This document shows positions 3,218-4,329 of a DNA stretch of 6,115 nt, piece by piece. The stretch's first letter is position 1. Each line of letters begins with the position of its first letter. The stretch comes from a virus (lineage: Duplodnaviria; Heunggongvirae; Uroviricota; Caudoviricetes): IMG/VR virus record IMGVR_UViG_2684622618_000021. The stretch is one strand, 5' to 3'. Made by a program: the position numbers and the translations under genes. The notes below the pieces were generated by a model. It had not been told where the DNA came from. It worked only from the letters and a program-made list of their open reading frames with translations, and did no database searches.

Positions 3218-3325
3218 TTTGCCCTCCTCTAAAAACTATAAGCAAAGCCTACAATAAAAAACTGTATGCAATCAACAGTTTTTTATTGTGATGCTTTTAA
3301 CAGTATTTACCTGTAAAATTGAATA
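3218..3325. promoter_or_regulatory. Divergent promoter / operator region between the Cro-like and repressor genes (OR/PR/PRM equivalent)
   Basis: 108-bp AT-rich intergenic region between divergently transcribed HTH genes. Contains the perfect inverted repeat at 3251-3289 plus partial half-site-like matches (aaaaactat near 3232, aacagtat near 3298). A TAAAAT -10-like hexamer sits at 3314-3319. Confidence 0.65.
3251..3289. promoter_or_regulatory. Operator: perfect 15-bp-arm inverted repeat acaataaaaaactgt-N9-acagttttttattgt
   Basis: The right arm is the exact reverse complement of the left arm; the 9-bp spacer is atgcaatca. Position and symmetry fit a dimeric HTH repressor / Cro binding site. 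Confidence 0.7.
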
Positions 3326-3727
3326 ATGATGAGCGCCCTAGAAGTATCTATGTACAGAATCAGCAAGCTTCTTCAGGAAACTGGATGGAGCCAGGCTGAG
3401 CTTGCCCGTAGAATTGGTGTGACACAACAAACTGTTCAACAATGGGTCAGCGGTAAGGCTACACCTAAAGCCTCAAGTTTGGATAAACTGGTTGAGGTTT
3501 CAGGGCATCCATTGCATTGGTTTTTATTGCCTCCTGAAGAGTGTGAGCAAATTTTCACCCCTGACACGATGAAAATTGGTCCTCGCCAACGCGAACTGCT
3601 CCAAGCTTTTAGTGCGTTTCCTGAGGAAGACCAAGAAAAAATGCTTCAAGAAATCAAAGACAAGAAAAAATCAATGGAAGAAACCATTGCTAGGTGGCTG
3701 GCGGCACAAAAAAGCCGCCGGGCGTGA
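3326..3727 (+). CDS. DicA / PaaR-like HTH repressor, 133 aa; candidate prophage immunity repressor
   Basis: ATG at 3326. N-terminal HTH QAELARRIGVTQQTVQQWVSG (XRE type). The C-terminal part ...QRELLQAFSAFPEEDQEKMLQEIKDKK... has the same architecture as E. coli DicA as I recall it. No obvious Shine-Dalgarno; possibly a leaderless transcript. Confidence 0.8.
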   Translation: MMSALEVSMYRISKLLQETGWSQAELARRIGVTQQTVQQWVSGKATPKASSLDKLVEVSGHPLHWFLLPPEECEQIFTPDTMKIGPRQRELLQAFSAFPEEDQEKMLQEIKDKKKSMEETIARWLAAQKSRRA

Positions 3728-3754
3728 CCACAGTACAAGAAGAGGAGTTATGCC

Positions 3755-3946
3755 ATGGGTACAGCCCTTTCTCCGATAGTTTCAGAATTCGAAACTACCG
3801 AACAAGAAAACAGTTACAACGAATGGTTGCGCACTAAAGTAACGTCAAGCCTTGCAGACACTCGCCCCGCAATTCCACATGACGAGGTAATGGCTGAAAT
3901 GGAAAATCTTATTGCTCAAATTGCTGTAACTAACAAGAGCGAGTAA
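3755..3946 (+). CDS. paaA: Small antitoxin, 63 aa, PaaA / ParD-like partner of the ParE-family toxin
   Basis: ATG at 3755 with an AGAGGAG Shine-Dalgarno at 7-nt spacing. Its stop overlaps the toxin start by 1 nt (TAATG). Sequence MGTALSPIVSEFETTEQENSYNEWLRTKVTSSLADTRPAIPHDEVMAEM... resembles, from memory, the 63-aa PaaA2 antitoxin of E. coli O157 prophages. The symbol is tentative. Confidence 0.7.
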   Translation: MGTALSPIVSEFETTEQENSYNEWLRTKVTSSLADTRPAIPHDEVMAEMENLIAQIAVTNKSE

Positions 3947-4233
3947 TGTTACCCATTTTATGGCTACCGTCTGCTCGCGATGATTTGCGCCAGATCATAA
4001 CTTACATCGCCAAGGAGAACCCACCGGCAGCACGTAGACTAAAAATACGCATTGAAACATCGGTATTACCTCTATCTGAGCATCCGTACTTATATCCACC
4101 AAGCGAACGGGTTTCTGGATTGAGAGAGATCGTGACCCACCCTAACTACATAATCCTGTACAGAGTAGCTGCTTCAAGCATTGAGATTGTAAGCGTGACA
4201 CATTCTCGGCGACAATTTCCCTTCTCTATCTGA
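3946..4233 (+). CDS. parE: ParE/RelE-superfamily toxin, 95 aa
   Basis: The N-terminal LPSARDDLRQIITYIAKENPPAARRL and C-terminal IEIVSVTHSRRQF fit the ParE/RelE (plasmid stabilisation) fold pattern. Translationally coupled to the upstream antitoxin. Confidence 0.8.
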   Translation: MLPILWLPSARDDLRQIITYIAKENPPAARRLKIRIETSVLPLSEHPYLYPPSERVSGLREIVTHPNYIILYRVAASSIEIVSVTHSRRQFPFSI

Positions 4234-4251
4234 GTTGAACAATTTTCATAC

Positions 4252-4274
4252 TCCCTCTTTCGAGGGATTTTTTT
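4252..4274 (+). terminator. Rho-independent terminator ending the repressor-antitoxin-toxin transcription unit
   Basis: 6-bp stem tccctc (4252-4257) / gaggga (4262-4267), 4-nt loop tttc, followed by a T7 run at 4268-4274, 19 nt after the ParE-like stop. Confidence 0.55.
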
Positions 4275-4284
4275 GCCCAAAACA

Positions 4285-4329
4285 ACAATTAAAAACTGTT
4301 GACACAAAAACAGTTTTTTATTGTAGATT
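4285..4329 (+). promoter_or_regulatory. Second operator copy overlapping a rightward promoter (PdicB-like)
   Basis: acaattaaaaactgt-N10-acagttttttattgt: the right arm is identical to the first operator and the left arm has one mismatch. A consensus TTGACA lies at 4299-4304 inside the site, with a possible -10 TAGATT at 4324-4329 (suboptimal 19-bp spacing). Confidence 0.55.

What the first reader, a model, noticed from the sequence alone, without database searches (positions are those of the whole stretch)
3251..4324. The same operator inverted repeat occurs twice, bracketing the repressor-antitoxin-toxin unit
A perfect 15-bp-arm palindrome (acaataaaaaactgt-N9-acagttttttattgt) lies in the divergent promoter region. 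An almost identical copy (one mismatch, N10 spacer) overlaps a consensus TTGACA -35 about 50 bp downstream of the terminator that follows the toxin gene. This implies one repressor controls both the Cro-like early operon and the rightward ydfA/B-DicF operon, as reported for DicA and dicB.
Basis: seen in the sequence. Interest (0 to 1): 0.5.

Follow-up and report, generated by a model that had tools for sequence, protein, structure and literature searches.

The report
Prophage repressor operators OR and OL
The two matching inverted repeats are the right and left operator sets of a lambda-like prophage of E. coli O157:H7, where one repressor shuts off the two outward-facing early promoters; this layout is already known from sister prophages, so the finding is real but ordinary.

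Summary
ACAATAAAAAACTGT-N9-ACAGTTTTTTATTGT lies at 3251-3289, and a copy with one mismatch and an N10 spacer lies at 4285-4324. That is 4 arm matches against 0.34 expected.

The window is the immunity region of cryptic prophage CP-933M of E. coli O157:H7. It is the paralogue of the studied paaR2-paaA2-parE2 locus of CP-933P. In CP-933P, PaaR2 (CI-like) and YdaS (Cro-like) were shown to bind OR and to repress a PL promoter lying beyond parE2. K-12 Qin (DicA, dicBp) has the same layout.

Two refinements follow.
- Each 15-bp "arm" is itself a complete operator, ACAR-N7-YTGT. Its half-sites are 434-like, and the repressor's best match among solved structures is the 434 repressor.
- OR has a third site at 3300-3314. 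OR is therefore tripartite (centre spacings 24 and 25 bp) and OL is bipartite.

In relatives down to 48% identity that keep the recognition helix VTQQTVQQW, these sites occur almost only at OR and OL. Their outer 4+4 bases are conserved and their centres vary, whatever cargo lies between repressor and OL. Relatives with another DNA-binding domain carry another motif at both places.

Verdict: a new member of a known kind, of low to moderate interest.

The parts
3251..3265 (.). OR1: operator ACAATAAAAAACTGT, lying in the spacer of the leftward promoter PR
   Evidence: Exact ACAR-N7-YTGT match. At -75 from the repressor start in all relatives of 68-100% identity.
3275..3289 (.). OR2: operator ACAGTTTTTTATTGT. 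It abuts the PR -35 and is centred about 44 bp upstream of the inferred PRM start.
   Evidence: position -51 conserved. Geometry.
3300..3314 (.). OR3: weaker third operator ACAGTATTTACCTGT. Its last T is the first T of the PRM -10.
   Evidence: Conserved at -26 with a variable centre and fixed ACAR/CTGT ends.
3246..3275 (-). PR (inferred): -35 TTGATT (3270-3275), 18-nt spacer, -10 TAGGCT (3246-3251). Drives the cro-like ydaS and ydaT genes.
   Evidence: Built like PL. TTGACC-N18-TAGTCT in L052. No start site has been mapped here.
3314..3326 (+). PRM (inferred): -10 TAAAAT (3314-3319), 6 nt, then the A of ATG at 3326. This implies a leaderless repressor mRNA.
   Evidence: TAAAAT-N6-ATG is kept in L052 and L053. 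Leaderless paaR2 was shown by 5' RACE in CP-933P (PMC8630535).
2945..3217 (-). Cro-like YdaS-family regulator (90 aa)
   Evidence: Pfam YdaS_toxin, 8e-10. Its helix-turn-helix is 54% identical to the repressor's, including QQTV-QW.
2951..2968 (.). Perfect TTGATT-N6-AATCAA, the YdaT (CII-like) operator type, at the ydaS/ydaT junction. This is the likely PRE region.
   Evidence: The motif is defined in PMC9986795.
3326..3727 (+). 133-aa CI-like repressor, the PaaR-type regulator of CP-933M. It has an N-terminal 434-like HTH and a C-terminal PaaR/DicA-type domain.
   Evidence: Pfam HTH_3, 2e-12. Best match among solved structures is the 434 repressor, 3e-5. The C-terminal part is 42% identical to PaaR2, and the protein is 28% identical to DicA.
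3755..3946 (+). PaaA-type antitoxin (63 aa)
   Evidence: Pfam PaaA2, 6e-19. PDB PaaA2, 1.4e-20.
3946..4233 (+). ParE-type toxin (95 aa)
   Evidence: Pfam ParE_toxin. PDB ParE2, 3e-36.
4252..4275 (+). Intrinsic terminator ending the repressor-antitoxin-toxin operon
   Evidence: -9.6 kcal/mol, T-run.
4285..4299 (.). OL2: operator ACAATTAAAAACTGT. Its last T is the first T of the PL -35.
4310..4324 (.). OL1: operator ACAGTTTTTTATTGT in the PL spacer. Its last T is the first T of the PL -10.
4299..4329 (+). PL-like promoter (dicBp equivalent, inferred): TTGACA, 19-nt spacer, TAGATT
   Evidence: The spacer is 18 nt in other E. coli relatives. The homologous PL933P and dicBp are active and repressed (PMC8630535, PMC10448788).
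4340..4510 (+). Conserved leader of the PL operon. It marks where homology between heteroimmune prophages resumes.
   Evidence: Alignment A1.
4511..4796 (+). ydfA and ydfB, the first genes of the PL (dicBF-type) operon
   Evidence: Pfam DUF1391. RefSeq annotation.
5906..5957 (+). DicF sRNA, further along the same operon
   Evidence: Rfam RF00039, 76.9 bits.

Best explanation
The two repeats are the right (OR) and left (OL) operator sets that bound the immunity region of the lambdoid cryptic prophage CP-933M.

The unit operator is a 15-bp dyad, ACAR-N7-YTGT. It is bound by dimers of the 133-aa CI-like repressor, which has a 434-like recognition helix (TQQTVQQW). The Cro-like YdaS protein has a near-identical helix and probably binds the same sites.

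OR holds three such sites.
- OR1 (3251) fills the PR spacer.
- OR2 (3275) abuts the PR -35.
- OR3 (3300) overlaps the -10 of the leaderless repressor promoter PRM.

OL holds two sites. OL2 (4285) abuts the -35 of the outward PL promoter and OL1 (4310) fills its spacer. PL drives ydfA-ydfB...DicF-dicB.

Repressor bound at OR1, OR2, OL1 and OL2 blocks RNA polymerase at PR and PL. By analogy with lambda, 434, PaaR2 and DicA, it stimulates PRM from OR2 and shuts PRM off at OR3.

The PaaA-ParE toxin-antitoxin pair is cargo co-transcribed with the repressor, in the slot that rexAB occupies in lambda.

What is shown here: the sites, their statistics, their positions relative to consensus promoter hexamers, and their co-variation with the repressor's DNA-binding domain across relatives. 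What is inferred: binding itself, promoter activity, activation at PRM, and OL-OR looping.
For: Site statistics
- The 15-mer matches 4 times against 0.34 expected.
- ACAR-N7-YTGT has exactly 5 hits in the window, all at OR or OL, against 0.34 expected.
- In 50 kb of prophage there are only 2 further hits, both GC-rich and both in tail genes. The chance expectation is 2.65.

Promoter geometry
- The reverse complement of OR aligns with OL as O2, TTGAyw, O1, TAGryT. These are two outward-facing promoters of the same build.

Identity of the locus
- The window is from an O157:H7 prophage.
- The antitoxin and toxin are homologues of PaaA2 and ParE2.
- The literature places a homologue of paaR2-paaA2-parE2 on CP-933M (PMC8630535).

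Experimental precedent
- In CP-933P, PaaR2 and YdaS footprint OR. PL933P, with operators OL1-3 beyond parE2, is repressed about 100-fold. paaR2 mRNA is leaderless.
- DicA in K-12 has operators at both dicCp and dicBp.

Comparative test
- 20 of the 29 loci analysed carry the helix VTQQTVQQW, at 100% down to 48% repressor identity. All 20 have exact sites at OR: at -75, -51 and -26 in those of 68% identity or more, and at -82 and -33 in the two 48% contigs. Wherever the contig extends far enough, all have two sites just before the conserved leader.
- The outer 4+4 bases are invariant and the centres vary.
- The pattern holds whether the cargo is PaaA/ParE, other ORFs or nothing.
- Relatives with another DNA-binding domain carry their own motif at both OR and OL. 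These are the 166-aa type, PaaR2, DicA, and the VAQQSVQKW group.

434 likeness
- The best solved-structure hit is the 434 repressor, with QQ at the start of the recognition helix.
- 434 sites are ACAAT-N4-ATTGT, with the outer 4+4 bases conserved (PMC1636474).
- The repressor and Cro-like HTH regions are 54% identical.
Against: - No experiment exists on this repressor or these sites. No paper in the searchable library contains the operator sequence.
- The consensus promoter scan did not call PL or PR. The PL spacer is 19 nt, and the -10 hexamers TAGATT and TAGGCT match the consensus at only 4 and 3 of 6 positions.
- The site is 15 bp long, not the 14 bp of 434, so the structural analogy is imperfect.
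- OR1 and OR2 stay near-inverted copies of each other in several lineages (5-7 of 7 central bases by my comparison of the sites listed). This leaves room for recognition of the pair as one unit.
Confidence: 0.85

Rival explanations
1. The whole 39-40-bp palindrome is the recognition unit. A PaaR-type tetramer or octamer reads each 15-bp arm as a half-site, so there are not two independent adjacent operators.
For: The arms are perfect inverted copies in the window. OR1 and the reverse complement of OR2 share 5-7 of 7 central bases in several lineages (my comparison of the sites). PaaR2 is reported to octamerise (PMC8630535).
Against: Each arm has its own internal dyad, ACAR...YTGT. A lone third site, OR3, is conserved. 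Only the outer 4+4 bases are invariant, while the centres drift, as in 434 operators. Arm-to-arm symmetry at OL is lost in L052 and L053, at 4 of 7 central bases.
Confidence: 0.12
2. The repeats are terminal inverted repeats of a mobile cassette carrying the repressor and the toxin-antitoxin genes.
For: The two copies are in inverted orientation about 1 kb apart and bracket a unit that differs between prophages.
Against: - No transposase or recombinase lies inside the unit.
- The same sites flank the repressor where there is no cargo (L009) or different cargo (L052, L053).
- The sites overlap the promoter hexamers.
- The motif changes with the repressor's DNA-binding domain.
- Homologous sites in CP-933P are footprinted operators.
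Confidence: 0.02
3. The repeats act as RNA hairpins, for example as terminators or processing sites, rather than as DNA operators.
For: If transcribed they would fold at -18.8 and -14.2 kcal/mol, with z-scores of -6.1 and -3.8.
Against: Both lie upstream of the inferred start sites of PR, PRM and PL. Neither is followed by a U-run. A proper terminator already precedes the second one. Stem complementarity is not maintained in diverged relatives, while the 4+4 ends are.
Confidence: 0.02
4. The sites are autoregulatory operators of the PaaA-ParE complex rather than of the 133-aa repressor.
For: A review reports partial repression of the paaR promoter by the PaaA-ParE complex, citing Hallez 2010 (PMC4803016).
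Against: PaaA2 has no DNA-binding domain (PMC8630535). The sites persist in relatives without PaaA/ParE. The PaaA/ParE homologues in L005-L008 and L056 sit next to quite different motifs that track the repressor type.
Confidence: 0.03

Closest known systems
paaR2-paaA2-parE2 / ydaS-ydaT immunity region of CP-933P (Jurenas et al. 2021, PMC8630535)
   Same: The gene order is the same: ydaT, ydaS, then repressor, PaaA, ParE, then PL and the ydfA-type operon. The antitoxin, the toxin and the C-terminal domain of the repressor are homologous. OR lies in the divergent intergenic region and OL/PL lies beyond parE. The geometry fits a leaderless repressor mRNA. The YdaT site TTGATT-N6-AATCAA sits at the ydaS/ydaT junction.
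   Different: The repressor's DNA-binding domain differs. Similarity begins only at residue 37, inside the window repressor's recognition helix, and the HTH scaffold upstream of it does not align. The Cro-like proteins show no detectable similarity. The operator is ACAR-N7-YTGT rather than the GTTTAGT-type repeats. The two prophages are therefore heteroimmune. OL has two sites here against three reported there.
DicA / DicC / dicBp of K-12 Qin prophage
   Same: A short, non-cleavable CI-like repressor (28% identical). Its operators lie both in the divergent intergenic region and at the promoter of the ydfABC-dicF-dicB operon. The downstream operon is the same (ydfA, ydfB, DicF).
   Different: Qin has no toxin-antitoxin cargo between the repressor and PL. 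Its operator is different (TTAGT-type). Its Cro analogue, DicC, is unrelated. The roughly 130-nt conserved leader is absent from Qin.
Phage 434 repressor/Cro with OR1-3 and OL1-3
   Same: It is the best match among solved structures, and the first two recognition-helix residues are QQ. The operator ends are ACAA/ACAG...TTGT/CTGT, with conserved outer 4+4 bases and a variable A/T-rich centre. OR is tripartite with neighbouring sites about 2.3 helical turns apart.
   Different: The sites are 15 bp long (N7 centre), not 14 bp. OL has two sites, not three. The C-terminal domain is of the small PaaR/DicA type with no RecA-cleavable peptidase domain, since only HTH families are found.
Lambda cI-rexA-rexB between OR and OL
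   Same: The repressor and its co-transcribed cargo genes are bracketed by OR/PR and OL/PL in inverted orientation. The repressor mRNA is leaderless, and long-range OL-OR cooperation is possible.
   Different: The proteins and operator sequences are unrelated. The OL-OR distance is about 1.0 kb here, against about 2.4 kb in lambda (my own knowledge). The cargo is a ParE-family toxin-antitoxin pair.

Membership tests
Lambdoid immunity region with OR and OL operator sets | Divergent CI-like and Cro-like genes separated by a short intergenic region that holds several copies of one operator motif | tested here: met
   Genes at 2945-3217 (-) and 3326-3727 (+), with a 108-bp intergenic region holding 3 ACAR-N7-YTGT sites.
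Lambdoid immunity region with OR and OL operator sets | A second cluster of the same motif lies at an outward promoter on the far side of the repressor operon | tested here: met
   Sites at 4285 and 4310 flank TTGACA and TAGATT. This arrangement is conserved in relatives.
Lambdoid immunity region with OR and OL operator sets | The operator motif co-varies with the repressor's DNA-binding domain (heteroimmunity) | tested here: met
   Six repressor types each carry their own motif at both OR and OL: the window type, the 166-aa type, PaaR2, DicA, the VAQQSVQKW group and Arsenophonus. The Arsenophonus repressor has the same helix as the window's and the same motif.
Lambdoid immunity region with OR and OL operator sets | The repressor binds the sites and represses PR and PL | not testable with these tools
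   Shown only for the homologues PaaR2 (PMC8630535) and DicA (PMC10448788).
PaaR-PaaA-ParE three-component toxin-antitoxin system | A PaaA-family antitoxin followed by a ParE-family toxin | tested here: met
   Pfam PF21217 at 6e-19 and PF05016 at 3e-17. PDB PaaA2 at 1e-20 and ParE2 at 3e-36.
PaaR-PaaA-ParE three-component toxin-antitoxin system | An upstream regulator gene homologous to PaaR2 | tested here: inconclusive
   Homologous from residue 37 to the C-terminus only (42% identity, E 1e-20). The N-terminal DNA-binding region upstream of that does not align.
434-type repressor-operator recognition | An HTH with Gln-Gln at the start of the recognition helix and sequence similarity to the 434 repressor N-terminal domain | tested here: met
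   phmmer against solved structures, 3e-5, with the alignment GVTQQTVQQW / GTTQQSIEQL.
434-type repressor-operator recognition | A 14-bp operator ACAA-N6-TTGT with conserved outer 4+4 bases | tested here: not met
   The outer 4+4 bases are conserved, but the site is 15 bp long with an N7 centre in every relative (434 sites are described). It works like 434 but is not the same register.
SOS-cleavable (LexA/CI S24) repressors | A C-terminal S24 peptidase domain | tested here: not met
   Only HTH families were found in the 133-aa protein. The C-terminus resembles PaaR2 and DicA.

The most novel reading that the evidence does not exclude
The PaaR1-type repressor is a natural 434-like reader whose dimer spans a 15-bp operator, one base pair longer than 434's. 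Through the shared PaaR C-terminal oligomerisation domain, it bridges the OR1-OR2 pair and the OL1-OL2 pair 1.0 kb apart. The expression of an addictive ParE toxin module would then be set by a prophage OL-OR loop. The O157:H7-specific extra base in OL (25-bp instead of 24-bp spacing, 19-nt PL spacer) would be an adaptive detuning of the toxic dicBF-type operon.
Probability: 0.25. Interest if true: 0.4.

Novelty: new member of a known kind. Interest (0 to 1): 0.25.

Why it matters
The result gives the operator code (ACAR-N7-YTGT), the site map and the promoter layout for the CP-933M immunity region of E. coli O157:H7, which has not been characterised. It shows that the PaaA-ParE toxin-antitoxin pair rides in a variable cargo slot between the repressor gene and OL.

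That helps predict three things: which O157 prophages are homo- or heteroimmune, when the DicF/DicB cell-division inhibitors are released, and how the toxin module is tied to prophage state. It does not reveal a new principle. The architecture was already shown experimentally for CP-933P and for Qin.

Tried and rejected
- The consensus promoter scan did not call PL, PR or PRM, because the PL spacer is 19 nt and the -10 hexamers are weak. The promoters are therefore inferred from alignment with each other and with relatives.
- Rfam, at gathering score over the whole window and at E<=1 over 4230-4520, found only DicF and nothing at the repeats or the PL leader.
- A consensus fold of the conserved PL leader gave no convincing covariation.
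- An RNA-hairpin reading of the repeats was considered and rejected (together).
- A mobile-cassette reading was considered and rejected.
- The genome-contig scan returned only one relative, from Arsenophonus, because that collection holds one genome per species. The viral and metagenome scans supplied the diverged relatives.
- A literature search for the operator sequence found nothing.
- The Cro-like protein has no significant match among solved structures.
- No similarity was detected between this Cro-like protein and DicC or the CP-933P YdaS.
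Full report
**1. Observation**

The window contains ACAATAAAAAACTGT (3251-3265) and its exact reverse complement ACAGTTTTTTATTGT (3275-3289), separated by 9 nt. A second pair lies at 4285-4299 (ACAATTAAAAACTGT, one mismatch) and 4310-4324 (exact), separated by 10 nt.

With up to three mismatches the 15-mer occurs four times, against 0.34 expected, and none of 200 dinucleotide-preserving shuffles reaches four. A terminator-like hairpin with a T-run (4252-4275) follows the toxin gene. TTGACA at 4299-4304 shares its first T with the left arm of the second repeat. 'About 50 bp downstream of the terminator' is loose, because the repeat begins 18 bp after the stem.

**2. Where the window comes from**

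The 1.6-kb core is 100% identical to hundreds of E. coli O157:H7 chromosomes, including EDL933 at 1,254,500-1,256,120. There it lies in a lambdoid prophage next to an integrase, an exonuclease, dicB and tail genes.

The genes, left to right, are:
- a YdaT-family gene on the minus strand, interrupted in the window by a run of N
- a 90-aa YdaS-family Cro-like gene (2945-3217, minus)
- a 133-aa HTH protein (3326-3727)
- a 63-aa PaaA-family antitoxin (3755-3946)
- a 95-aa ParE toxin (3946-4233)
- ydfA, ydfB and a ydfC-position ORF
- DicF (5906-5957; Rfam 76.9 bits)

These assignments rest. The antitoxin and toxin match the solved PaaA2 and ParE2 structures at 1e-20 and 3e-36. Jurenas et al. 2021 state that a homologue of paaR2-paaA2-parE2 lies on CP-933M of the same strain (PMC8630535). 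From the position in EDL933 and this homology I infer that the window is that homologue.

**3. What is already established for the closest systems**

In CP-933P:
- PaaR2 is a CI analogue translated from a leaderless mRNA.
- YdaS is a Cro analogue and YdaT a CII analogue.
- PaaR2 and YdaS both footprint the 97-bp ydaS-paaR2 intergenic region.
[quoted passage not shown] With operators OL1-3, it lies on the far side of parE2 and is repressed about 100-fold by either protein.
- PaaR2 octamerises.

In K-12 Qin, DicA represses dicBp, the PL equivalent upstream of ydfA. Operators are described in both the dicC-dicA and the dicA-dicBp intergenic regions (PMC10448788). I could see TTAGT-type repeats at both places in the K-12 sequence.

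**4. Anatomy: the 'arm' is a whole operator and OR has three of them**

Each 15-nt arm is itself a dyad, ACAAT-AAAAA-ACTGT. The pattern ACAR-N7-YTGT has exactly five hits in the window: the four arms plus 3300-3314 (ACAGTATTTACCTGT). The expectation is 0.34, and 0 of 200 shuffles reach five. In 50 kb of the prophage only two further hits occur, both GC-rich and both in tail genes, within the chance expectation of 2.65.

The centre-to-centre spacings are 24 and 25 bp in OR and 25 bp in OL.

The reverse complement of OR aligns with OL as O2, TTGAyw, O1, TAGryT. PR (leftward: TTGATT-N18-TAGGCT) and PL (rightward: TTGACA-N19-TAGATT) are therefore built alike. One operator abuts the -35 and one fills the spacer.

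The third site ends on the first T of TAAAAT (3314-3319). Six nt later comes the A of the repressor ATG at 3326. That is the geometry of a leaderless PRM transcript, as demonstrated for paaR2. These promoters are inferred. The simple consensus scan did not call them.

**5. The comparative test**

I collected relatives from E. coli genomes, GTDB genomes, viral contigs and metagenomes.

Twenty of the 29 loci analysed carry the recognition helix VTQQTVQQW, with repressor identities from 100% down to 48%. The most distant are from Arsenophonus triatominarum and a related contig. All 20 have exact ACAR-N7-YTGT sites at OR. In loci of 68% identity or more they lie at -75, -51 and -26 from the repressor start. 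In the two 48% contigs two exact sites lie at -82 and -33, and the Arsenophonus contig has a one-mismatch site between them. Wherever the contig is long enough, two more sites lie just before the conserved PL leader.

The outer 4+4 bases are invariant, while the seven central bases differ between lineages. Examples are ACAAGAGTTAACTGT, ACAGTTATTTCTTGT and ACAAGGGATACCTGT. Only two hits in these 20 loci fell outside OR and OL.

The position of OL follows the cargo:

| Cargo between repressor and OL | OL position from repressor start |
|---|---|
| PaaA/ParE | about +960 |
| Truncated toxin-antitoxin pair (L049, L050) | +608 |
| Unrelated 120-aa ORF (L052) | +984 |
| Two unrelated ORFs (L053) | +1268 |
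| None (Arsenophonus) | +465 |

Relatives with a different DNA-binding domain lack ACAR-N7-YTGT and carry their own motif at both OR and OL:
- ATAGCA-N3-GCTAT-like for the 166-aa repressors
- GTTTAGT-type for PaaR2
- TTAGT-type for DicA
- CACTTWTAAAGT for the 66%-identical group, whose helix is VAQQSVQKW

Homology between all these heteroimmune prophages resumes a few bases after the PL -10 (alignment A1). This is the pattern expected of operators and of a swappable immunity cassette.

**6. Recognition chemistry**

The repressor's best matches among solved structures are the N-terminal domain of the 434 repressor (E 3e-5), aligned as GVTQQTVQQW over GTTQQSIEQL. 434 operators are 14-bp sites of the form ACAAT-N4-ATTGT. 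Their outer 4+4 bases are conserved and their centre is not contacted and is variable (PMC1636474).

The present sites have the same ends but one more central base pair. The system works like 434 but is not in the same register. The Cro-like protein shares 15 of 28 residues across the HTH, including QQTV-QW, so it very probably competes for the same sites.

The C-terminal part of the repressor is 42% identical to PaaR2, and most alike over the last 40 residues. It is more distantly like DicA. No peptidase domain is present, so RecA-mediated self-cleavage is not expected.

**7. Mechanism proposed**

Repressor dimers on OR1-OR2 and OL1-OL2 exclude RNA polymerase from PR (ydaS-ydaT, replication genes) and from PL (ydfA...DicF-dicB...exo-int). 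OR2 lies just upstream of the weak -35 region of PRM and may stimulate it. OR3 gives negative autoregulation. The Cro-like protein would fill the sites in the opposite order.

PaaA-ParE is transcribed with the repressor and ends at the terminator at 4252-4275, so the toxin module is expressed in the 'lysogenic' state, as shown for CP-933P. OL-OR looping across about 1.0 kb is plausible, because the C-terminal part of the protein, where any oligomerisation surface would have to lie, is shared with PaaR2. It is untested.

Shown here: the sites, the statistics, the geometry and the co-variation. Inferred: binding, promoter activity, activation and looping.

**8. Rivals**

- *The 39-bp palindrome as one recognition unit.* This is not excluded. 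OR1 and OR2 stay near-inverted copies in several lineages. But the lone conserved OR3, the internal dyad and the 4+4 conservation favour 15-bp units.
- *Terminal repeats of a mobile cassette.*
- *RNA hairpins*.
- *Operators of the PaaA-ParE complex.*

The last three are each contradicted by the relatives that lack the cargo, by the overlap with promoter hexamers, and by the motif tracking the repressor type.

**9. Novelty and score**

The architecture is textbook lambdoid and has been demonstrated in the sister prophage and in Qin. New here is the specific operator code and site map for the CP-933M-type repressor. No paper in the searchable library contains the sequence. Also new are its 434-like half-sites on a 15-bp frame and the view of the repressor-to-OL interval as a variable cargo slot.

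It is a new member of a known kind. Interest is 0.25.

Noticed in passing
window 2794-2873: A run of 50 N (2809-2858) is flanked on both sides by the same 15 nt, GCTCGAAATACGCTT. It looks like an assembly or scaffolding gap with overlapping ends inside the ydaT gene. The EDL933 chromosome is contiguous there, and its ydaT is 426 nt.
   Followed up: partly
window 2951-2968: A perfect TTGATT-N6-AATCAA lies at the ydaS/ydaT junction. This is the inverted repeat that CP-933P YdaT (the CII analogue) was shown to bind, so a PRE-type promoter for the repressor operon probably exists here too.
   Followed up: partly
window 4340-4470 (alignment A1): A leader of roughly 130 nt after PL (CCACCCCGCCCCACAGAACGC...GTAAGTAGCCAGCCCGAGGCGTATGAACATGACGGC) is conserved across heteroimmune E. 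coli prophages and is recognisable in Arsenophonus, but is deleted in K-12 Qin. It has no Rfam match and no convincing covariation. Its function is unknown; it could be an antitermination or processing element.
   Followed up: partly
window 4300-4324 versus L003, L004 and L022-L048: The O157:H7 allele has one extra A between OL2 and OL1. That gives 25-bp instead of 24-bp operator spacing and a 19-nt instead of an 18-nt PL spacer. Its OL1 is identical to OR2, whereas other E. coli relatives have a perfectly palindromic OL with N9. This may weaken PL.
   Followed up: partly
L049, L050, L052, L053, L009: The interval between the repressor gene and OL is a variable cargo slot. It holds intact PaaA/ParE, a truncated remnant, an unrelated 120-aa ORF, 134-aa plus 81-aa ORFs, or nothing.
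   Followed up: partly
L056-L059, L077: A 66%-identical repressor with recognition helix VAQQSVQKW, also followed by PaaA/ParE, has no ACAR-N7-YTGT sites. It carries CACTTWTAAAGT-like repeats at both OR and OL, which makes it a natural specificity switch within one protein family.
   Followed up: partly
window 5906-5957: A DicF sRNA gene (Rfam RF00039, 76.9 bits) lies downstream in the PL operon. O157:H7 carries several DicF copies, according to the literature cited in PMC10448788.
   Followed up: yes
window 4808-5197 and 5384-5572 (-): A 129-aa ORF sits in the ydfC position and a 62-aa Cys-rich ORF lies on the opposite strand. Neither has a Pfam match. RefSeq calls the relatives of the second one 'ECs_2282 family putative zinc-binding protein'.
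   Followed up: no
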